Shown piece by piece: positions 1 to 8,619 of a stretch of DNA of 8,773 nucleotides. The stretch lies in IMG/VR virus record IMGVR_UViG_2695420539_000004. One strand, written 5' to 3'. The position numbers and the translations under genes were made by a program. How positions within the stretch are numbered: position 1 is the stretch's first letter; each line of letters starts with the position of its first letter. This DNA comes from a virus (taxonomy: Duplodnaviria; Heunggongvirae; Uroviricota; Caudoviricetes). The notes below the pieces were generated by a model. That model made no database searches, was not told the DNA's origin, and saw only the letters and a program-made list of their open reading frames with translations.

Positions 1-2747
1 CCGTTAACAATTTCCGGCCCGTTTTCACCGACGATGCCAAACTGCCCGCGCGGGATATAGCCGCCGCTGTCATACATCCCCGCAAAGCCATATCCCCATG
101 ACGGAAAACCACCCGATGGCATCATCACTTTACCGTCTGTATTCACCGTCCCAGGTTGCTGACGCGTCACACTTTCCGGTAGTTTCGCCTTTGCGGCCTC
201 TTTACTGACAACGCCGAGTTTCTCCAGCAACCAGGATACGCCGGATTTGAGGGAGTCCAGCGGATGCATAACCATATTCAGCCCTTCCGCCAACGCCTCC
301 CCGAATCGTCGCCCCATTTCCGCTGCGCTCTGCAGTTCGGCAGAAGTCGACTTAACGGGTGTCAGCAGATCAGTAAACCAGCCCCACAACGCCTGCACTT
401 TATCGCCAATCCACTGGAACACAGGCTTAAGTGGTTCGAACGCGGCACTGACGGGACCTGCCGCTGCTTTGAATCCCTCCACCACACCACCGAGAAACGC
501 GGTGATGGGTTGCCAGTATTTCCAGACAACCAGCGCCACACCCGCCAGTGCAGTAACCACAAGACCTATCGGACTGAGCAGAGCACCTAACAGACCAGAC
601 ACGGCATACAGGGCAACGCGCAGCATCACCAGCGGACCGGATGCCAGTACTCGTAGCACCGCGCCTGCGGCAGTCAGCCCGCCGCGTAGTGCTGCCAGTG
701 GATTCATAAACATCACAGCAACAGCACGTAAACCGGATAATCCAGACCGCAAAAGTGCAACCGGCGCACCTGCTACAGTTTTCAGGACATTTCCCGTCAG
801 TGATGCCGTGCGGCGCAAAGACGACAACGGCGCAGTAAGTAAACCCGCTGCGCTGCCCGTTGAAGCAAGCCCGCGTCGCAGCAGTGCAAGTGGTGCGCCA
901 GCCAGCCAGGACAACGCGCTGCTGGTTCGTGTTACTGCTGCCGTAACGGAAGGTAACGTTTTGATACCCAGCACAGAGAATCCCAGACGGATCACTGCCA
1001 GCGGCCCCAGCACTGCAGCCAACGCCACCGCTAAGGTGCCGAGGCCTACGGTAACCGCAGCCACAACAGCCGCTACTTTCACCAGTGTGCCTGTCAGTTC
1101 CGGGTTAGCTTCCACCCAGCGGCGCAACGCCCCCGTGATGCTTTTCACCGTGTACAGAATATCCATCAGCGGCTGGCGCAGCGTTTCGCCCAGGCTGCTG
1201 AAGGTGTTCTGCGCTCCGGTTTTAACCAGCAACCACTGCGCAGAAAGTGAGTCCTTGTTAATGTCGGATTCTTTCTGCATCGAACCGAGCGCATCATTGC
1301 CCGCTGTCAGTTTTAGCTGGCGCTGCAGTTCCGGCAAGTTGTTTGCCAGTTTCGCCGCATCATCGCCAAACTCTTTACCAAACAACATGGTCATGGCAGA
1401 CAGGCGCTTATCCTGCGGCAGTGCGTTCACCTTCTCCAGCACGCGCTGGATGGTTCCCATCGCATCCTTCGTCATCTGCTTTTCAATCACCTCAGGATTG
1501 AGTTTCAGCAGATTCATTCCTTCAAAGAAACTCTTGCTTTGCATGGTGGCAATGGACAATTCACGCACCATCGCGTTTGCTGCACTGGCTGCAACCTCCG
1601 GCGCAGCGCCCAGTGTCAGGAAGGTGGAACCCAGCGCCGCCGCTTTACGATAATCCAGACGGTCAGCCACACCGCCCAGACGTTGCATCACATCAATGAT
1701 GTCTGCCCCTTTCGACATGGCGTTATCATCCAGATAGTTCAGCGCATCGCCGAGCTGTTCAATATTGCGGGTAGGGATTTTGTAGAGCTGGGCGATTTTC
1801 CCCAGACTTTCTGACAGTTCATCCGCTGGCAACTCAAAGGCTGTTGCCGCCTTTGCTGCCGTGCTGGCGAAGGCCAGCAGGTCACGTTTCTGGTCTTCCC
1901 AGCTGTCGTCAGGGTTTGCGACGTTCATGCGCGCCCCACCTTCAACCAGTGCAGCGAAGTCCACCGCACCGTTTTCCATCGGCAACTGTTCGCTGGCAGC
2001 CTTGATGGCATCCTGCATTTCATAAAAACGTGCAGTGCGGTTGCCATTATCGTCACGCAGACCATTGACCTGCTTTGCCACACCTTTCATGGCATCTTCC
2101 ATGCTGGTATAGCTTTTTACTGCCGCCATCACTGGCGCACCCATTGCCAGCCCTGCAGCCGTGGTGGTGGCTCCGGCTCCTGCAATACGATCGCGCACCT
2201 CCAGCGAACGGGCATAACTGGCACGCGCCGCATTCATCCTGCGCTGAGCTTCCCCCAGTCGCTTCAGGCGCGCCTCCTGTTTCGACAATTCCTGGTTATA
2301 ACGTGATGTTTCACGGGCTAAACGGGCAGTTGCTCCCGCATCATCTTTCGCAGAAATTCCCGCCCGGTACAGTTCTGCACGCACAAGCGCCGTTTGCTTC
2401 TGCAAATATTTTTGTTGTTCTTCCAGGCGTTGGACTGCCAGCGTTTGCCGACCTAAAGCCACAAGGTGCCGTTGTGATGGTTGTTCCATCGCCTCCAGCT
2501 CAGAGCTAAGCAAATTAGCCTTCTGTCTGGCATAGTTCAGCCTGTCGCCTAACTTCTTGTTATCGGCCTGCAGCTTGCGAAATTTTTCCAGGCTGTTACC
2601 CGCCTGATTGAGTTGCTTTAATGCGTCACGGGAGTTTCTGATTGCGCCAGCCAGCTCTTTCGAACTGGCCTGTGCAGCACGGAATGGGCGGGTGAGTTTG
2701 TCAACCGCATTAAGAATGACCTGCAGGCGCAGGTTATTATCACTCAT
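1..2747 (-). CDS. T: Phage tail tape measure protein (P2 gpT-like); C-terminal end runs off the window start
   Basis: Minus-strand ATG at 2747..2745 (acgATGAGTGATAATAACCTG -> MSDNNLRLQVILNAVDKL...) opens a frame with no stop down to position 1 (last residues ...GQFGIVGENGPEIVNG). Spot translations at about 1000-1250 and 1-270 stay in frame. Coiled-coil-like N-terminus (Q/E/L/R/A-rich) followed by a long Ala/Val/Leu/Gly-rich hydrophobic region, typical of tape measure proteins. Position downstream of E/E' matches P2 order FI-FII-E-E'-T. The ORF track shows no minus-strand stop-bounded ORF here, consistent with an open frame. Confidence 0.85.
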   Translation of the reverse strand, partial: MSDNNLRLQVILNAVDKLTRPFRAAQASSKELAGAIRNSRDALKQLNQAGNSLEKFRKLQADNKKLGDRLNYARQKANLLSSELEAMEQPSQRHLVALGRQTLAVQRLEEQQKYLQKQTALVRAELYRAGISAKDDAGATARLARETSRYNQELSKQEARLKRLGEAQRRMNAARASYARSLEVRDRIAGAGATTTAAGLAMGAPVMAAVKSYTSMEDAMKGVAKQVNGLRDDNGNRTARFYEMQDAIKAASEQLPMENGAVDFAALVEGGARMNVANPDDSWEDQKRDLLAFASTAAKAATAFELPADELSESLGKIAQLYKIPTRNIEQLGDALNYLDDNAMSKGADIIDVMQRLGGVADRLDYRKAAALGSTFLTLGAAPEVAASAANAMVRELSIATMQSKSFFEGMNLLKLNPEVIEKQMTKDAMGTIQRVLEKVNALPQDKRLSAMTMLFGKEFGDDAAKLANNLPELQRQLKLTAGNDALGSMQKESDINKDSLSAQWLLVKTGAQNTFSSLGETLRQPLMDILYTVKSITGALRRWVEANPELTGTLVKVAAVVAAVTVGLGTLAVALAAVLGPLAVIRLGFSVLGIKTLPSVTAAVTRTSSALSWLAGAPLALLRRGLASTGSAAGLLTAPLSSLRRTASLTGNVLKTVAGAPVALLRSGLSGLRAVAVMFMNPLAALRGGLTAAGAVLRVLASGPLVMLRVALYAVSGLLGALLSPIGLVVTALAGVALVVWKYWQPITAFLGGVVEGFKAAAGPVSAAFEPLKPVFQWIGDKVQALWGWFTDLLTPVKSTSAELQSAAEMGRRFGEALAEGLNMVMHPLDSLKSGVSWLLEKLGVVSKEAAKAKLPESVTRQQPGTVNTDGKVMMPSGGFPSWGYGFAGMYDSGGYIPRGQFGIVGENGPEIVN

Positions 2748-3176
2748 CGTTGGCCCCGCTTCTCTGAATCGCTTTATACCGCCATTCCAGCACTTCGGTC
2801 AGCGGCATAACGTCAGTAACGGATGGCGGCCAGTGAAAAATGGTGGCGATATCTGCCACCAGATCGTCAACCGTCAGGCTGTCGGTAAACCGGCAAGCAC
2901 CGACTTCTTCAACAAAAAAGTGACAACCTCAACCGACATAGCAGTGAGATCTGCCGGGTCCATCTCTGCAATTTCCTGTGCAGTCAGTGCCGGGCTGGAG
3001 ATGCGGGGGATCACGATCATCATCGCGTTCACATCCATATCCATAATCGCCTGCAGGCGTGTACCGCGCAGCGCACCGGACTGCGGTTTGCGCAGCACAA
3101 TTTCGGTGATTTCTGTTTTACCACGCTTGATAGGGGTATCCAGTTGAATGGTCTTTTCAGTCTGCTTATCGCTCAT
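2740..3176 (-). CDS. E': gpE+E' fusion chaperone produced by programmed -1 ribosomal frameshift (about 145 aa)
   Basis: After codons 87-88 (TTT TTG) of E, a -1 shift onto codon GTT (2913..2911) gives 57 further sense codons (VEEVGACRFTDSLTVDDLVADIATIFHWPPSVTDVMPLTEVLEWRYKAIQRSGANDE) ending at TGA 2742..2740. That stop overlaps the tape-measure ATG (2747..2745). I counted 174 nt = 58 codons with no internal stop. Confidence 0.7.
2874..3176 (-). CDS. E: Tail assembly chaperone (P2 gpE-like), 100 aa
   Basis: ORF-track minus ORF MSDKQTEKTIQLDTPIKRGK...VTFLLKKSVLAGLPTA. Sits between tube and tape-measure genes as in P2 and lambda (G/GT equivalent). Weak SD (AGGA) upstream. Contains slippery heptamer near its 3' end. 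Confidence 0.8.
   Translation of the reverse strand: MSDKQTEKTIQLDTPIKRGKTEITEIVLRKPQSGALRGTRLQAIMDMDVNAMMIVIPRISSPALTAQEIAEMDPADLTAMSVEVVTFLLKKSVLAGLPTA
2913..2919 (-). other. Slippery heptamer T-TTT-TTG for the E/E' -1 frameshift
   Basis: + strand caaaaaa (2913..2919) is TTTTTTG on the coding strand, in phase X-XXY-YYZ with the E frame (acT TTT TTG). Position is 12 codons before the E stop, as in tail-chaperone frameshifts of the lambda G/GT type. Confidence 0.65.
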
Positions 3177-3230: not shown

Positions 3231-3746
3231 TCAGAGGCCGAGGGCGTTACGGTGTGCTTCCATCAGGTCCACACCGTCCACGATTTCCACCATGTTGATG
3301 AGGTCCACTTCATAGAGCACCTCACCATTGATGGTCAGCTTCGCGTAGCTGTTGGTACTGGTCACTTTGGTGGTGTTGCTTTCGCCCGTCTTCCACTCGC
3401 CGGAATCCACTTCTTTGTGACGTCCACGTACCACAAGCTCCACGGCCTGCACTTCCCCGGTATCATCACGCTGGATAGAGCCGGTAAAGCGCAACTGGAT
3501 GCCATCCACCGTGGCTTTGCCCATCTGTTTAAACAGCAGCAGTTCAGTACCACCAATGGAAAATTCTGTGTCCAGAGCACTGTCATCAAGCCCCAGATCC
3601 ACATCCACTGCACCCGGCATTCCGCCGCCGCGATACTTCTCATATTTGCGGGTGAATTTCGGCAGCGTCAAAGACTCTACGATCCCCTGCCAGTTGTTCC
3701 CGTCGTTAAACAGGTTCAGATGTTTTAATTTGCGTGGTAAAGCCAT
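3231..3746 (-). CDS. FII: Tail tube protein (P2 gpFII-like), 171 aa
   Basis: ORF MALPRKLKHLNLFNDGNNWQGIV...YRGGGMPGAVDVDLGLDD... matches my recollection of the P2 FII N-terminus (MALPRKLK...) and the YRGGGM motif. GGGGA SD 5 nt before ATG. Immediately downstream of the sheath gene. Confidence 0.9.
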   Translation of the reverse strand: MALPRKLKHLNLFNDGNNWQGIVESLTLPKFTRKYEKYRGGGMPGAVDVDLGLDDSALDTEFSIGGTELLLFKQMGKATVDGIQLRFTGSIQRDDTGEVQAVELVVRGRHKEVDSGEWKTGESNTTKVTSTNSYAKLTINGEVLYEVDLINMVEIVDGVDLMEAHRNALGL

Positions 3747-3755
3747 GTTGTCCCC

Positions 3756-4928
3756 TTACGCGCTGACCTGGCTGGCAAAATTCACCAGGTACTGATCGGT
3801 GATGCGCTGACGCAGCATCAGATTTTCAAGTGGCGGCACTGGCGTGTAGTCATAGTCGATGGTGAGTTTTCCGGCTTTCAGCGTGTCTTTGTCGTTCACC
3901 GACTCGTCCAGCCAGCAATCACCACCAATGAGATACCCCTGACTGACCAGGCTGCGCATTTTGGCGCGGATACCTTCGATAATGTCGCGGGCCAGCGACG
4001 GGTTCAGCGGTTTGTCCACCGCCCACATATGCGCTTCTGCCATCGTGTCCATCAGTACCTGCGCCGTGCGGGTGTAGTTTTCGAAGGCAAAGAGCGGGTC
4101 ATCACTCAGGCAGCGGGAACCCCAGAAGCGGAAACCGTCTTTGCGGATAAGCGTGGTGACGTCGTTCTGGTTAAGCAGTCCCGCATCGGTTGCCGGGTCC
4201 TGCAGATCCCAGAACACATCTGCAGAAATTCCGGTGACACCGTTCACGCCCACGTTGGACAGGCTTTTGTGCCACCCGGTCTGCTCATCAATTTTGGCGC
4301 GCAGACCAAGCGCACGGGCGGTGGCATATGCCGTTGCTTCGGCATTCAACACCGTATCCCAGCCAGTAAAGTCGGGCCAGATCAGCATTCCTTCGCGCTG
4401 GCTGAAGTTTTCACGGTAAGTGATCGCCTCCTGTACCGTCTTGCAGCCATACGCTGACAGGTAAGCAAACCCACGCAGGCTTTGCGCCACGCTCAGCAAC
4501 TCAGTCGCAACGGCTTTGTTATCGTGACCTGGCACGCCGAGAATGCGCGGTTTAACGCCGAGCTGTGACTGGGCAGATAGCAGGGCTTTCATGCCTGTTT
4601 TTTTACCTTCAGCAGTCACAGCGCCGATGATATTGGTCGTGGTTTCGTCTTCCGTTTCACCCTGCGGCACACGCACAACAACGGTCACGGGTTTTGCCTG
4701 GTCAGCGATGGCATCCAGCGAACGGGCCAGAGTACCGGACTCACCCGCTTTACCGCTGGCAGTCAGCACATCAGTGATCAGCACGGGTTTATTAAGAGGA
4801 AACATTTTTGCATCGGCATCATCGCCCGTGCAGATCATACCCACGATGGCGGTGCTCACCGTGGTAATGGATCGGGTGCCTTCGTTGACTTCAACAACGC
4901 GCACCCCGTGGTGGTAATCCTGAGCCAT
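3756..4928 (-). CDS. FI: Contractile tail sheath protein (P2 gpFI-like), 390 aa
   Basis: [57 protein letters not shown]... with C-terminal ...[32 protein letters not shown]. Closely resembles remembered P2 FI along its whole length. Strong SD AGGAGG (4938..4943 on + as cctcct) 9 nt upstream of ATG 4928. Confidence 0.92.
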
Positions 4929-5070: not shown

Positions 5071-5637
5071 TCAGGGAGATTCATTGCTCTTATTTGCCGG
5101 AAATTTTCTATAAATAGTAGAAACGCCTACATCAAAAATCAGTGCAATACGCTGTCTTGATTCTCCGGCCTCAAGTAAACGCCCAATCTGTGCCCACTGT
5201 TCGGTGGTCAACTTAGGACGGCGTCCACCTACTCTGCCTTTGGCACGAGCTGCAGCCAGCCCTGCCCTGGTACGTTCAACTATCAGTTCGCGTTCCATTT
5301 CAGCCAGGGCACCCATAACATGAAAAAAGAAACGGCCCATTGGGGTACTGGTATCAATACTGTCAGTCAGGCTTCGGAAATTCACGCCACGCTGGCGCAA
5401 CTCTTCTATCAGCGTAACAAGATGCCGCATACTGCGCCCCAGTCTGTCCAGCTTCCAGACAACCAGAGTGTCTCCTGCCGATAGTGTCCTGAGCAGTTTT
5501 TTAAGCCCCGGTCTGTCGGACTTAGTGCCACTGATTTTATCCTCAAAAATCCGCTCACATCCCGCGCAGTTCAGTGCATTACGTTGCAAATCGGTGTTCT
5601 GGTCATTTGTTGACACGCGTACATAGCCAATAAGCAT
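5071..5637 (-). CDS. Site-specific DNA invertase, small serine recombinase of the Hin/Gin/Cin/Pin family (188 aa from the conserved start)
   Basis: MLIGYVRVSTNDQNTDLQRNAL...DTLVVWKLDRLGRSM...GVNFRSLTDSIDTSTPMGRFFFHVMGALAEMERELIVERT...C-terminal HTH (GVSTIYRKF). Catalytic Ser in VRVSTNDQ. Conserved start MLIGYV at 5637 has SD AGGGGA 6 nt upstream. The ORF-track start at 5682 adds 15 non-conserved residues ([15 protein letters not shown]) and is probably not used. Confidence 0.9.
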   Translation of the reverse strand: MLIGYVRVSTNDQNTDLQRNALNCAGCERIFEDKISGTKSDRPGLKKLLRTLSAGDTLVVWKLDRLGRSMRHLVTLIEELRQRGVNFRSLTDSIDTSTPMGRFFFHVMGALAEMERELIVERTRAGLAAARAKGRVGGRRPKLTTEQWAQIGRLLEAGESRQRIALIFDVGVSTIYRKFPANKSNESP

Positions 5638-5664
5638 GATCAATCCCCTGAATAAAAACCGGGG

Positions 5665-6057
5665 ATGATGCCAGTTAGCCATTATCTCTGCATTTTCATA
5701 AACGTTGGTTTGGGAGAAGCGGCTAAAAGGAATGTAGGGACAGGGGCGAATCAGATACCTGATATGGGTAGCTTCACGCTTTCTGTTTCAGGTACTGGAT
5801 ATCAAAAATTACCATCAGGTTTTATTCTTCAGTGGGGCTCAATCGGCGCACCAGGCATTGCACAGGATGTAGTAACCCATTTCCCGATTGCATTTCCAAA
5901 CAGATGTCTGCGTGTTTTGGTCTCACAAGACTACACACCAGATAGCGGGGCTGTTGGTTATATTGCCTGTGCAGGTTTTAGTCCCGACCCGGTTAAATTT
6001 ATATCCAGAGCCAGTACTCCTGGCCTCGGCGCTTCATTTTTAGCGTTAGGCTGTTAA
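5665..6057 (+). CDS. Silent alternate tail-fibre C-terminal segment (Sv'); expressed only as a fusion to the H constant region after inversion
   Basis: ORF-track frame 5665..6057 reads through the crossover site as ...[23 protein letters not shown]..., the same GLGE phase as H (LLTYLGLGEG). Functional exon is 5719..6057, about 113 aa, ending TAA 6055..6057 and followed 21 bp later by tfa'. The ATG at 5665 lies outside the segment, has no proper SD and is antisense to the invertase leader, so stand-alone expression is unlikely. Confidence 0.6.
5693..5718. repeat. Invertase crossover site (gix/hix/cix-like 26-bp site), left end of invertible segment
   Basis: TTTTCATAAACG-TT-GGTTTGGGAGAA: 12-bp half, 2-bp core, 12-bp half. 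20/26 identical to the Hin hix consensus as I recall it (TTATCAAAAACCTTGGTTTTCAAGAA). Inverted relative to the 7558..7583 site (22/26 match to its reverse complement), with complementary cores TT/AA. Confidence 0.75.
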
Positions 6058-6078
6058 TTTAGCTATATGGAGTGAAAA

Positions 6079-6519
6079 ATGAATTACATATATTCCGCGA
6101 CTACAAACTCTTTCTATCCGCTGGAGATGAAAGAGGATTACACTCAAGCTGACTCATGGCCAGATGATGCTGTTGAAGTTGATGAGCAAGTGTATATTGA
6201 GTTTTCCGGATTACCGCCGAAAGGAAAAATCCGTATCGCTGGAGAAAATGGTTTTCCTGCATGGTCCGAAATTCCACCACCAACACATGAGGAACAAATT
6301 GCTGCAGCCGAACTGGAGAAGCAGCAATTGATTAATCAGGCCAACGATTATATGAACAGTAAACAATGGCCTGGTAAAGCGGCTATTGGTCGTCTGAAAG
6401 GTGACGAACTGGCGCAATATAATTTGTGGCTGGATTACCTGGACGCACTGGAACTGGTCGATACTTCCGGTGCGCCAGATATTGAATGGCCTACGCCTCC
6501 GGCAGTTCAGGCCAGATGA
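6079..6519 (+). CDS. tfa: Alternate tail-fibre assembly chaperone (Tfa', Mu U'/P2 gpG family), 146 aa
   Basis: MNYIYSATTNSFYPLEMKEDY...QYNLWLDYLDALELVDTSGAPDIEWPTPP: characteristic Tfa N-terminus and conserved C-terminal motif. GGAG SD 7 nt upstream (6068..6071). Lies directly after Sv' within the invertible segment. Confidence 0.85.
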   Translation: MNYIYSATTNSFYPLEMKEDYTQADSWPDDAVEVDEQVYIEFSGLPPKGKIRIAGENGFPAWSEIPPPTHEEQIAAAELEKQQLINQANDYMNSKQWPGKAAIGRLKGDELAQYNLWLDYLDALELVDTSGAPDIEWPTPPAVQAR

Positions 6520-7093
6520 CATCCGGCGCGGTGCTGGTATCTGTTGCCGTCACCGCGTCAATGTAATCCAGCACAGCGTTAAGTCGGGTGGTTTCTGCCT
6601 GCGTCAGCTTCCGCCCGGCCTGCAATTTCAGTTGAATCAGACTGATGGAAGCCATTGCAGTATCAATCAGTGACTGACGCTGTGCTTCTGCCGCGTCTAC
6701 TGCGGCGCAATGCTGTGCCTCAGTATCGGTCACCCATTTCTCACCATCCCATTTATCGAATGGCGTTAACGGGGCGATAGTGGTTGTATTTTCAGGGTAA
6801 TCACCCGGAGTTGTGATTTCTTTGGCGTCTCCCGTTTCGGTGTTATAGATGATTTCACCGCGATGGTCTGGCACATACTCCCATGAGTTTAAATCTGCTG
6901 AACGGCAGATTGCATAACCAGCTTTATGTATACCTGGTGCATCTAAACAAGAACATGCCGGGATACCGACGCCAACAGCAAGATATTCAGTTGATGTGGA
7001 AAGATATTCCCGCGTCTTGCTGTCGTAGTTAAACACGGTCACATCACCCGCTACCGTGGCAATCAGTTCGCTGTTTAATTTTGCCTGTGCCAT
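6491..7093 (-). CDS. tfa: Tail-fibre assembly chaperone (Tfa, P2 gpG / Mu U family), 200 aa; currently in the expressed orientation
   Basis: MAQAKLNSELIATVAGDVTVFNYDSKTREY...RLNAVLDYIDAVTATDTSTAPDVIWPELPEA. Start ATG overlaps the H stop (TAATG at 7091..7095). Typical enterobacterial Tfa C-terminal motif. Confidence 0.9.
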   Translation of the reverse strand: MAQAKLNSELIATVAGDVTVFNYDSKTREYLSTSTEYLAVGVGIPACSCLDAPGIHKAGYAICRSADLNSWEYVPDHRGEIIYNTETGDAKEITTPGDYPENTTTIAPLTPFDKWDGEKWVTDTEAQHCAAVDAAEAQRQSLIDTAMASISLIQLKLQAGRKLTQAETTRLNAVLDYIDAVTATDTSTAPDVIWPELPEA

Positions 7094-8619
7094 TATGCAG
7101 CCCTCACAATGAAGTTAAATGCGACGTTGCGCGGCCGGTTTTCAGTGGCAACAGGAACGATTTTAGATGCATCAAAGCTAAAGTTTACAGTCCCATTACC
7201 TGCCCCTGAAGGCGCAAGAGTTAATCCTAAAGTTTGTGACACATTCTCAACAGTGACGCCAAATGCACCATCACAATAGATACTTGGGTACAATTGAGTA
7301 TTACCAAACTTGCCAATTATATTTCTGATGGCATCGCCCTGCGATGATAAGATTGCACGCCCAACATCAACCCCGCGCCCGTCATCCCAGCCGCGAATAA
7401 ATTCACCGCGTAAATCAGGCAATTTATTTGTCGGGTAAGCCTTTGCCAGTTCCGGGTATTCTTCAGCAGAAAAAGCCGCACCATTGCATTTCAGCCAGCC
7501 TGTTGGCGGAGTGGCTGAAGGCCACGGAACAGGCACACCAACAGGCAATGCAGAGCCTTCTCCCAAACCAAGGTATGTGAGAAGACCAGCTACATCCTTT
7601 CCACTCAAATTGGTAAGCGTATTGTCCAGCGGTTGTTTACCTGCCAGCGCATTAAGCATTGTCGTGGCAAAGTTCGGATCATTCCCCAGTGCCGCCGCCA
7701 GTTCGTTCAGTGTATCCAGTGCAGCAGGTGCAGAACCCACCATTCCTGCAATCGCCGATTTCACAAAAGCCGTAGTGGCAATCTGTGTATTGTTGACCGA
7801 CTGCGCCGCCGTGGGGGCTGTTGGCGTTCCGGTGAGTGCCGGACTCGACAACGGTGCTTTTAGTGCCAGCGCATTGTTAATGGTGGTACTGAAATTCGGA
7901 TCATTGTTAATGGCTGCGGCTATTTCTTTCAGCGTGTCCAGCGTGGCTGGCGCACCATTAATAAGGGCCGTCAGTGCCGCCTGTACAAACGCAGTGGTCG
8001 CAACCTGCGTGGTATTATTCCCCGCCGCTGGCGTTGGCGCTTTGGGGGTTCCGGTAAATGTCGGGCTGGCTTTTGGCGCGTACTGTGAATGCGGGTCCGG
8101 TGCGGCAAGATGTTTTGCCATCTGATCATCCGCGTACACCTTCAGCTCCAGTGCCTTGTCATCCACATACTTGCGGGTTGCCAGCACTACAGCAGGGTCG
8201 ATTTTCAGGGTGATATTGTCCGTGCTGCTGGTAATCAGCACCATGCGCACGGTCTGAGTGCGCCCGCTACCTTCAGCCAGTTGCGGCTTATAGCTTTCCG
8301 GGCAGTTGCCCACGGCAATCAATGCCCCGGACTCATCAAACAGACCCACTTCACGTATCCACCAACCGCCCTCGTTTTCAGGGATCACCTGTTCGGCAAT
8401 AATCTGGCTGCTGTTCTGCGGGTCGATATAAAGCATATTCAGCGCAGCCCGGCGTTTCTCATTTACCAGTGCCGTCTGTTTTGCGTCCGGCGTTGGCAAT
8501 ACTCCACCGCCATCGCCCACCGCCATATGGGTAATTTTTAGCGGCACACCGAGCGCGGCGGCGCTGGCAAGTTTCGCCGCGCCAATATCCGTCAGCAGGG
8601 TATAAAATTTTGTGCTCAT
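7093..8619 (-). CDS. H: Tail fibre protein (P2 gpH-like constant N-terminal part 7584..8619 fused to a variable C-terminal receptor-binding part 7093..7557 with tail-collar motifs), 508 aa
   Basis: N-terminus MSTKFYTLLTDIGAAKLASAAALGVPLKITHMAVGDGGG resembles P2 H. Two fibre-shaft repeats (...NNTQ[VI]ATTAFV...LDTL.E.AAA...NDPNF.TT..NALA.K.P). C-terminal part has tail-collar-type motifs (PTGWLKCNGAAFS..YPEL...LPDLRGEFIRGWDDGRGVD.GR). Start ATG overlaps the stop of the upstream gene (ATGA). Confidence 0.92.
   Translation of the reverse strand: MSTKFYTLLTDIGAAKLASAAALGVPLKITHMAVGDGGGVLPTPDAKQTALVNEKRRAALNMLYIDPQNSSQIIAEQVIPENEGGWWIREVGLFDESGALIAVGNCPESYKPQLAEGSGRTQTVRMVLITSSTDNITLKIDPAVVLATRKYVDDKALELKVYADDQMAKHLAAPDPHSQYAPKASPTFTGTPKAPTPAAGNNTTQVATTAFVQAALTALINGAPATLDTLKEIAAAINNDPNFSTTINNALALKAPLSSPALTGTPTAPTAAQSVNNTQIATTAFVKSAIAGMVGSAPAALDTLNELAAALGNDPNFATTMLNALAGKQPLDNTLTNLSGKDVAGLLTYLGLGEGSALPVGVPVPWPSATPPTGWLKCNGAAFSAEEYPELAKAYPTNKLPDLRGEFIRGWDDGRGVDVGRAILSSQGDAIRNIIGKFGNTQLYPSIYCDGAFGVTVENVSQTLGLTLAPSGAGNGTVNFSFDASKIVPVATENRPRNVAFNFIVRAA
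7558..7583. repeat. Invertase crossover site embedded in the H coding sequence (constant/variable junction), right end of invertible segment
   Basis: TTCTCCCAAACC-AA-GGTATGTGAGAA. Left half is identical to the reverse complement of the right half of the 5693..5718 site (TTCTCCCAAACC). Encodes LLTYLGLGE (H residues 346-354). Confidence 0.75.
7630..8067 (-). repeat. Diverged intragenic tandem duplication (2 x about 72 codons) encoding the tail-fibre shaft repeat
   Basis: H residues about 185-256 and 259-330 align (SPTFTGTPKAPT...NNTTQVATTAFVQAA...LDTLKEIAAAINNDPNFSTTINNALALKAP vs SPALTGTPTAPT...NNTQIATTAFVKSA...LDTLNELAAALGNDPNFATTMLNALAGKQP). Visible at DNA level as two similar roughly 215-bp blocks. 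Confidence 0.55.

What the first reader, a model, noticed from the sequence alone, without database searches (positions are those of the whole stretch)
2740..3176. Programmed -1 frameshift generating E and E+E' tail chaperones, with E' stop overlapping the tape-measure start
A T-TTT-TTG heptamer (coding strand, + coordinates 2913..2919) lies in the correct phase 12 codons before the E stop. The -1 frame downstream is open for exactly 57 codons and terminates 5 nt after the tape-measure ATG. This is the conserved tail-assembly-chaperone frameshift architecture, and gene callers usually annotate only E, leaving E' as an apparent gap.
Basis: partly seen in the sequence, partly recalled or inferred. 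Interest (0 to 1): 0.45.

Follow-up and report, generated by a model that had tools for sequence, protein, structure and literature searches.

The report
P2-type E/E+E' tail-gene frameshift
This is the well-known programmed -1 ribosomal frameshift by which P2-like prophages make two tail-assembly proteins (E and the longer E+E') from one start codon; it is real here but ordinary, since the same DNA is in about a fifth of complete E. coli genomes.

Summary
On the minus strand, gene E (3176..2874, 100 aa) carries one in-phase T_TTT_TTG heptamer (2919..2913), 12 codons before its stop. The -1 frame is then open for 57 codons. It ends at TGA 2742..2740, inside ATGAGTGA, which also holds the tape-measure ATG (2747..2745).

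The interpretation also holds. E matches Pfam Phage_TAC_7 (1e-18) and the -1 segment matches Phage_P2_GpE (5e-19). The modelled 145-aa fusion aligns across the junction with phage P2 E+E' (49% identity). The P2 RefSeq record annotates a -1 frameshift at the identical heptamer, with the same stop/start overlap.

The heptamer is in phase in 12 of 16 diverse relatives. The other four have a different in-phase slippery heptamer at the same place. It is unchanged in 79 of 80 near-identical viral contigs. Substitutions downstream fall mainly on third positions of the -1 frame.

I found no conserved RNA stimulator. The region is 100% identical to a prophage in E. coli SL124 and occurs in 998 of 5426 complete E. 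coli genomes.

Verdict: an already known feature in a Fels-2-like P2-family prophage, of annotation value only. NCBI's PGAP pipeline records E' as a truncated standalone 39-aa gene.

The parts
2874..3176 (-). Gene E (zero frame), 100 aa, tail assembly protein
   Evidence: ORF. Pfam PF10109 Phage_TAC_7, E=1e-18, residues 9-88. PHROG 103 'tail protein', 1.6e-43. PGAP calls it 'phage tail assembly protein' in the 100%-identical E. coli SL124 prophage.
2913..2919 (-). Slippery heptamer T_TTT_TTG (Phe87-Leu88 in the zero frame)
   Evidence: Phase verified. It is the only TTTTTTG in the window. The heptamer and phase are identical in P2, where RefSeq marks the frameshift site. It is in phase in 12 of 16 diverse relatives and unchanged in 79 of 80 close relatives.
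2740..2913 (-). E' segment: 57 codons in the -1 frame plus TGA, read after the slip (G2913 is read twice)
   Evidence: Translation. Pfam PF06528 Phage_P2_GpE, 5e-19. PHROG 1756, 1.8e-22, covering residues 3-57. Third-position bias of substitutions in the -1 frame: 9 of 13 (P=0.009) and 11 of 18 (P=0.014).
2740..3176 (-). Whole E+E' coding unit, giving a 145-aa fusion (88 aa in frame 0 plus 57 aa in frame -1)
   Evidence: The fusion aligns end to end across the junction with P2 E+E' (48.9% over 139 aa) and with 14 other P2-family fusions. tblastn of the fusion finds 419 phage records. 386 of them cover at least 80% of it, and every such record among the 60 listed was hit as two pieces.
1..2747 (-). 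Tape-measure gene T (5' part; it runs off the window). ATG at 2747..2745 overlaps the E' stop as ATGAGTGA
   Evidence: Open for 915 codons to the window end. PF10145 PhageMin_Tail, 1.7e-18. PGAP gives the same start, and T is 1025 aa in E. coli SL124.
3231..3746 (-). FII tail tube gene, immediately upstream of E (context)
   Evidence: PF04985 Phage_tube, 8.8e-60.
3756..4928 (-). FI tail sheath gene (context)
   Evidence: PF04984, PF17482 and PF22671.

Best explanation
The window is the tail-gene block of a Fels-2-like, P2-family (Peduoviridae) prophage of E. coli. Ribosomes start at ATG 3176 and translate gene E.

Most ribosomes read through T_TTT_TTG and stop at TGA 2876..2874, giving the 100-aa protein E.

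A minority slip. With tRNA-Phe on UUU in the P site and tRNA-Leu on UUG in the A site, both tRNAs move back one base and re-pair on UUU_UUU. Decoding then resumes at GUU (G2913 is read twice) and continues for 57 codons in the -1 frame to TGA 2742..2740. The result is a 145-aa E+E' protein that shares its first 88 residues with E.

By analogy with lambda G/GT and P2 E/E+E', the shared N-terminal part would bind the tape-measure protein encoded just downstream. The E' part would recruit tube subunits. A fixed low ratio of long to short product would be needed for tail assembly.

Shown here: the sequence architecture, homology of both frames, conservation of the site, and purifying selection on the -1 frame. 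Inferred: that slippage happens in this prophage, its efficiency, and the chaperone roles.
For: - Geometry and phase were verified.
- Frame 0 matches PF10109 (1e-18) and frame -1 matches PF06528 (5e-19). PHROGs tail families match both parts.
- The P2 RefSeq record NC_001895 annotates E+E' as a 2-piece join with 'site of -1 translational frameshift'. It uses the same ggT_TTT_TTG and an equivalent ATGAGTAA overlap with T.
- Lynch et al. 2010 (PMC3091744) state that in P2 the -1 shift occurs at TTTTTTG. It gives the 91-aa E and the 142-aa E+E', and the site is conserved in Burkholderia phages. They cite Christie 2002 and Xu 2004.
- Across 16 diverse phages (33-87% identity to the window fusion), 12 carry in-phase T_TTT_TTG at the homologous codon. 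The other four carry another in-phase slippery heptamer there: T_TTT_TTC twice, G_GGA_AAG once and A_AAT_TTT once.
- The -1 peptide is conserved from the first residue after the site (V-[AE]-E-[VL]-G...). The zero-frame tails differ in length (2-16 aa) and sequence.
- The fusions align across the junction.
- In 80 near-identical IMG/VR contigs, 79 keep TTTTTTG. One has T_TTT_TTA, which is still slippery.
- Substitutions in the E'-only region fall on third positions of the -1 frame: 9 of 13 and 11 of 18.
- Between the opening of the -1 frame and GTG 2859 there is no start codon, and that GTG has no Shine-Dalgarno sequence.
Against: - There is no direct expression evidence for this prophage: no peptide, ribosome profile or reporter data.
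- No stimulatory element was found. The 53-nt downstream fold has z=-0.47, RNAalifold finds no consensus structure over 12 relatives, and the upstream SD-like GAGGT is no stronger than the peptide MSVEVV would give by chance (P=0.64). Efficiency therefore cannot be argued from sequence. The literature reports the same absence for P2.
- On sequence statistics alone, the heptamer plus the open frame is only moderately improbable.
Confidence: 0.93

Rival explanations
1. E' is an independent small gene. It would be translated from its own start (GTG 2859) as a 39-aa 'GpE family phage tail protein', as PGAP annotates it, with no frameshift.
For: PGAP and several phage records annotate exactly this standalone CDS. 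Many relatives have Met or Val at the homologous codon.
Against: - GTG 2859 has no Shine-Dalgarno sequence upstream (gcctgacggttgacgatctg), and it is the first possible start in the -1 frame.
- The homologous codon is Trp, Glu or Ile in VP58.5, H905, 1127AP1 and a Klebsiella phage, so a start there is not conserved.
- The 18 codons upstream of it (VEEVGACRFTDSLTVDDL) are conserved at protein level back to the heptamer. They are also covered by PHROG 1756.
- An in-phase slippery heptamer is present in all 16 relatives examined.
- From my memory of the Christie et al. 2002 abstract (the paper could not be opened), fusion-polypeptide analysis in P2 showed that E' is made as an extension of E.
Confidence: 0.04
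2. The -1 product arises by transcriptional slippage. RNA polymerase would add or drop a U on the T6 run, and the edited mRNA would then be translated normally.
For: The site contains a homopolymeric run of six T. Sequence alone cannot formally separate RNA polymerase slippage from ribosomal slippage.
Against: - Productive bacterial transcriptional slippage is described on runs of about 9 A or T (Atkins et al. 2016, PMC5009743). Six is short.
- At the homologous position some relatives use G_GGA_AAG or A_AAT_TTT. These have no long homopolymer but are classical tandem-slippage heptamers.
- The strict X_XXY_YYZ phase is conserved. RNA polymerase slippage would not require it.
Confidence: 0.02
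3. The two-frame arrangement is a decayed gene: a frameshift mutation or sequencing error in a once continuous E+E' ORF of a defective prophage.
For: Prophage genes often carry frameshift mutations in homopolymer runs.
Against: - The same two-frame arrangement is seen in the large majority of 419 phage records. These include functional phages: P2, Fels-2, RE-2010, KS14 and others.
- It is also seen in 80 of 80 viral contigs and in about 1000 E. coli genomes.
- Both the short E stop and the -1 ORF are maintained.
Confidence: 0.01

Closest known systems
Bacteriophage P2 genes E and E+E' (FETUD tail operon; Christie et al. 2002, J Bacteriol 184:6522; RefSeq NC_001895, P2p25/P2p26)
   Same: - Same slippery heptamer T_TTT_TTG in the same phase.
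- Same 57-codon -1 extension.
- Same stop/start overlap with T (ATGAGTGA here, ATGAGTAA in P2).
- Same position between FII (tube) and T (tape measure).
- Same Pfam families in both frames.
- 48.9% identity over 139 aa of the fusion.
   Different: - E is 100 aa rather than 91.
- The zero-frame tail after the site is 12 codons (LKKSVLAGLPTA) rather than 6 (SPNSVQ).
- The tape measure is longer: 1025 aa in the identical E. coli prophage against 815 aa in P2.
- Nothing was tested experimentally for this prophage.
E/E' of Fels-2-like phages (Felsduovirus Fels2, Salmonella phage RE-2010, SopEPhi, Klebsiella phage 4LV2017, Escherichia phages 500465-1 and Cartapus)
   Same: This is the lineage the window belongs to. 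DNA identity is 95-98% to Klebsiella phage 4LV2017, 500465-1 and Cartapus, and 85-86% to Fels-2, SopEPhi and RE-2010. The heptamer, tail length (12 codons), extension (57 codons) and ATGAGTGA overlap are identical in RE-2010. GenBank HM770079 labels the two genes 'tail protein E' and 'tail protein E''.
   Different: Only point substitutions, mostly synonymous in the relevant frame.
Lambda G/GT and the conserved tail-assembly-chaperone frameshift of long-tailed dsDNA phages (Levin 1993; Xu, Hendrix & Duda 2004, 2013, 2014)
   Same: - Two proteins share an N-terminus and are made by a low-level -1 shift near the end of the upstream ORF.
- The pair is encoded between the major tail or tube gene and the tape-measure gene.
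- The short product, and the matching part of the long one, binds the tape measure. The -1 domain binds the tail tube subunit. Neither is in the virion (Atkins et al. 2016).
   Different: - Lambda uses G_GGA_AAG and belongs to different protein families.
- From my memory of the Christie et al. 2002 abstract, the lambda and P2 tail proteins show no sequence similarity. I did not test lambda similarity here.
- Lambda has a non-contractile tail, whereas this is a contractile-tail phage.

Membership tests
P2 gpE / gpE+E' frameshifted tail assembly pair | The upstream ORF belongs to the gpE N-terminal family (Pfam PF10109 Phage_TAC_7) | tested here: met
   E=1e-18, 67.6 bits against a cutoff of 25, residues 9-88. 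PHROG 103, 1.6e-43.
P2 gpE / gpE+E' frameshifted tail assembly pair | The -1 frame downstream encodes the GpE (E') domain (Pfam PF06528) | tested here: met
   E=5e-19, 67.9 bits against a cutoff of 23, full profile 1-37. PHROG 1756 and 6416.
P2 gpE / gpE+E' frameshifted tail assembly pair | An in-phase slippery heptamer X_XXY_YYZ (T_TTT_TTG in P2) lies inside the overlap of the two frames | tested here: met
   acT_TTT_TTG at 2919..2913, phase checked. Identical to P2. Conserved in relatives.
P2 gpE / gpE+E' frameshifted tail assembly pair | Located between the tail tube gene (FII) and the tape-measure gene (T) | tested here: met
   FII is 3746..3231, E is 3176..2874 and T starts at 2747.
P2 gpE / gpE+E' frameshifted tail assembly pair | E' lacks its own translation initiation signal | tested here: met
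   The first possible start in the -1 frame is GTG 2859, which has no SD. Protein conservation extends 18 codons upstream of it, back to the heptamer. Weak independent initiation cannot be excluded from sequence.
P2 gpE / gpE+E' frameshifted tail assembly pair | The fusion protein is actually produced by a -1 shift at a low fixed frequency | not testable with these tools
   Needs a reporter assay, mass spectrometry or ribosome profiling. From my memory of the Christie 2002 abstract the frequency in P2 is about 10%. The paper was not available.
P2 gpE / gpE+E' frameshifted tail assembly pair | Both E and E+E' are essential for tail assembly | not testable with these tools
   This is genetic evidence and exists only for P2 (notes in NC_001895: 'essential tail protein').
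Lambda G/GT-type tail assembly chaperones (functional class) | The short product and the N-terminal part of the long product bind the tape measure; the -1 domain binds the tube subunit; neither is in virions | not testable with these tools
   Described for lambda (Atkins et al. 2016). Here it is inferred from synteny and the Pfam family name only. No relative has a solved structure.

The most novel reading that the evidence does not exclude
In this Fels-2-like lineage the shift might be helped by a local hairpin that starts 8 nt after the heptamer (GUCGGU-N12-ACCGAC, about 2904..2881). P2 is reported to have no stimulator. One relative, ST11-OXA245phi3.1, changes the closing pair U-A to C-G on both sides. 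However, the fold is no better than shuffled sequence (z=-0.47). No consensus structure exists across the family. The region codes in two frames, which could explain the paired changes.
Probability: 0.08. Interest if true: 0.2.

Novelty: already known. Interest (0 to 1): 0.07.

Why it matters
It matters mainly for annotation. Automated pipelines split this unit into 'phage tail assembly protein' plus a truncated 39-aa 'GpE family phage tail protein', or leave a gap. The true 145-aa E+E' product is therefore missing from most protein catalogues, although the locus is in roughly 18% of complete E. coli genomes. Biologically it adds nothing new. It is another instance of the conserved tail-assembly frameshift established for P2 in 2002 and generalised to long-tailed phages in 2004.

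Tried and rejected
1. Downstream RNA stimulator. Folding 53 nt and 83 nt after the heptamer gave z=-0.47 and -2.16 for the window, and mostly non-significant values in 8 relatives. RNAalifold on 12 relatives predicted zero pairs. I rejected a conserved stimulator. A lineage-specific weak hairpin is left as a low-probability possibility.

2. Upstream Shine-Dalgarno-like stimulator.
- Anti-SD duplex energies upstream of the heptamer looked enriched: median -6.9 against a background of -2.7 kcal/mol.
- A null that keeps the encoded peptide and resamples synonymous codons removed the signal for the window (P=0.64) and for most relatives. Only Burkholderia phages reached 0.01-0.05.
- The signal is therefore largely explained by the conserved E/K-V-V and G-G codons.

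3. NCBIfam gave no hit for E or the fusion.

4. The PDB sequence search gave no hit at E-value up to 1, so there is no structural anchor.

5. Christie et al. 2002 (PMC135442) could not be opened. Its content is cited through Lynch 2010 and from memory.

6. The bare frequency of TTTTTTG in the window is not significant.

7. The IMG/VR scan returned only relatives of 99% identity or more. That was useful for invariance of the site but not for diversity, so diverse loci were taken from GenBank phage records instead.
Full report
**What is in the sequence**

On the minus strand the window carries a P2-type tail block:
- tail fibre H (8619..7093)
- fibre assembly gene G (7093..6491)
- an invertible fibre segment with a serine invertase
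- sheath FI (4928..3756)
- tube FII (3746..3231)
- a 100-aa ORF (3176..2874)
- a long ORF that starts at ATG 2747 and runs off the window, with at least 915 codons and a PhageMin_Tail domain

- TTTTTTG occupies 2919..2913 on the coding strand.
- Base 2919 is the third base of codon 86, so the zero-frame reading is acT_TTT_TTG (Phe87, Leu88). This is the canonical X_XXY_YYZ phase.
- Twelve sense codons follow before the E stop.
- Re-reading G2913 in the -1 frame gives 57 sense codons and then TGA 2742..2740.
- That TGA overlaps the downstream ATG as ATGAGTGA.
- The -1 frame is open for only 62 codons in total, so the heptamer lies at the very start of the two-frame overlap.

**Is it more than chance?**

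Taken alone, only moderately.
- TTTTTTG occurs once in the window, with 2.1 expected.
- In-phase X_XXY_YYZ heptamers occur about once per 346 codons in the genes of this window.
- 8% of codon positions are followed by at least 57 open -1 codons.
- My rough estimate of the joint probability for a 17-codon overlap is a few per thousand.

The case rests on homology and conservation.

**Homology**

- E matches Pfam PF10109 ('Phage tail assembly chaperone proteins, E, or 41 or 14', 1e-18).
- The -1 segment matches PF06528 ('Phage P2 GpE', 5e-19) over the whole profile.
- PHROGs tail families match both parts, and PHROG 1756 covers residues 3-57 of the 57-aa extension.
- tblastn with the modelled fusion finds 419 phage records, and 386 cover at least 80% of it. 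Every such record among the 60 listed was hit as two pieces, that is, in two frames.
- The P2 sequence shows ggT_TTT_TTG, a 57-codon extension and the overlap ATGAGTAA with T. The geometry is the same as here.
- Lynch et al. 2010 (PMC3091744) summarise the primary work. In P2 the -1 shift occurs at TTTTTTG and gives the 91-aa E and the 142-aa E+E'. The site is conserved in Burkholderia P2-like phages. No downstream hairpin is found.
- The same join rule gives 88+57 = 145 aa in the window.

**Conservation**

I collected 15 diverse relatives from Escherichia, Salmonella, Klebsiella, Erwinia, Burkholderia, Pseudomonas, Vibrio, Aliivibrio and Mannheimia phages. Their identity to the window fusion is 33-87%.
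- In 12 of the 16 sequences (window included), in-phase T_TTT_TTG sits at the homologous codon.
- The other four carry a different in-phase slippery heptamer at the same place: T_TTT_TTC twice, G_GGA_AAG once and A_AAT_TTT once.
- The -1 peptide is conserved from the first residue after the site. The zero-frame tails vary from 2 to 16 residues and are dissimilar between lineages.
- The fusions align across the junction.
- Among 80 IMG/VR contigs with a nearly identical E there are 42 haplotypes. 79 contigs keep TTTTTTG and one has T_TTT_TTA.
- Variable sites fall on third positions of frame 0 in the E-only part (26 of 27).
- They fall on third positions of frame -1 in the E'-only part (9 of 13, P=0.009). 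Against RE-2010 the figure is 11 of 18, P=0.014.
- The -1 frame is therefore translated and under purifying selection.

**Rivals**

Independent initiation of E', as PGAP annotates it (39 aa from GTG 2859), is unlikely.
- That GTG is the first start codon in the frame.
- It has no Shine-Dalgarno sequence.
- The homologous codon is Trp, Glu or Ile in some relatives.
- Protein conservation extends 18 codons upstream of it.

Transcriptional slippage is unlikely. The run is only six T, whereas productive bacterial cases involve about nine (Atkins et al. 2016). Relatives also use non-homopolymeric heptamers in strict phase.

A decayed gene is excluded because the arrangement is universal in functional phages.

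**Stimulators**

- Folding the 53 nt after the site gives z=-0.47, and relatives are similar.
- RNAalifold over 12 relatives finds no pairs.
- An apparent enrichment of anti-SD complementarity upstream disappears for the window (P=0.64) once the encoded peptide is held fixed and only synonymous codons are resampled.
- The site appears to work without a conserved stimulator, as reported for P2.

**Identity and prevalence**

- The 501-base region is 100% identical to a prophage of E. coli SL124, inserted next to ybjL.
- It is found at 95% identity or more in nearly all of the 998 matching genomes, out of 5426 complete E. coli genomes.
- The closest named phages are Klebsiella phage 4LV2017 and Escherichia phages 500465-1 and Cartapus (95-98%).
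- Fels-2, SopEPhi and RE-2010 are at 85-86%.

**Verdict**

The feature is already known, both as a kind and in this lineage. Its only practical value is to correct annotation. I rate the interest low.

Noticed in passing
window 5071-7583 (inverted repeats 5693-5719 and 7557-7583): This looks like an invertible tail-fibre host-range segment.
- 27-nt inverted repeats (85% complementary) lie within H at about codon 345 (motif YLGLGE) and at the start of a promoterless alternative fibre C-terminus (5665..6057, +, Gp53-like_C).
- They flank two oppositely oriented fibre-assembly genes: 7093..6491 (-) and 6079..6519 (+), both Caudo_TAP.
- A serine invertase gene (5682..5071, -, Resolvase plus HTH_7) lies next to them.
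- It resembles the Mu G-segment and P1 C-segment switch.
   Followed up: partly
L037 (IMGVR_UViG_2778261510_000014), locus positions about 1758-1764: One of 80 near-identical relatives has T_TTT_TTA instead of T_TTT_TTG. The change is synonymous in E, the heptamer is still slippery, and the first E' residue changes from Val to Ile.
   Followed up: yes
L087:894-900 (Mannheimia phage 1127AP1), L088:834-840 (Vibrio VP58.5), L098:840-846 (Aliivibrio H905), L099:855-861 (P88_4B11): At the homologous E/E' junction these P2-family phages use other in-phase heptamers: G_GGA_AAG (the lambda G/GT heptamer), T_TTT_TTC and A_AAT_TTT. The architecture is conserved while the slippery sequence turns over.
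   Followed up: partly
window 2740-2859 (-), and L100:6842-6961: PGAP annotates E' as a standalone 39-aa 'GpE family phage tail protein' starting at GTG 2859. This omits the 18 conserved codons between the heptamer and that GTG, and it omits the fusion to E.
   Followed up: yes
L001, L002, L004, and also L087, L090, L092, L093, L097, L099 (FII gene in RefSeq viral records): Many RefSeq viral records name the FII tail tube protein 'head closure'. The protein matches Pfam Phage_tube at 8.8e-60, and GenBank and PGAP call it the major tail tube protein. This is probably a propagated mislabel.
   Followed up: no
window 1-2747 (-) and 247-1653 (+): The tape-measure gene is long here: at least 915 codons in the window and 1025 aa in the identical E. 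coli prophage, against 815 aa in P2. Its region is unusually stop-poor in other frames. There is a 468-aa antisense ORF at 247..1653 (+), and -1 frame runs of 120-137 codons follow two in-phase heptamers inside T. This looks like a composition effect and not like extra genes.
   Followed up: no
window 2881-2904 (-): A hairpin GUCGGU-N12-ACCGAC starts 8 nt after the heptamer. RE-2010 has the same sequence. ST11-OXA245phi3.1 has GUCGGC/GCCGAC, a change on both sides of one pair. It is not significant against shuffles and is absent from more distant relatives.
   Followed up: partly
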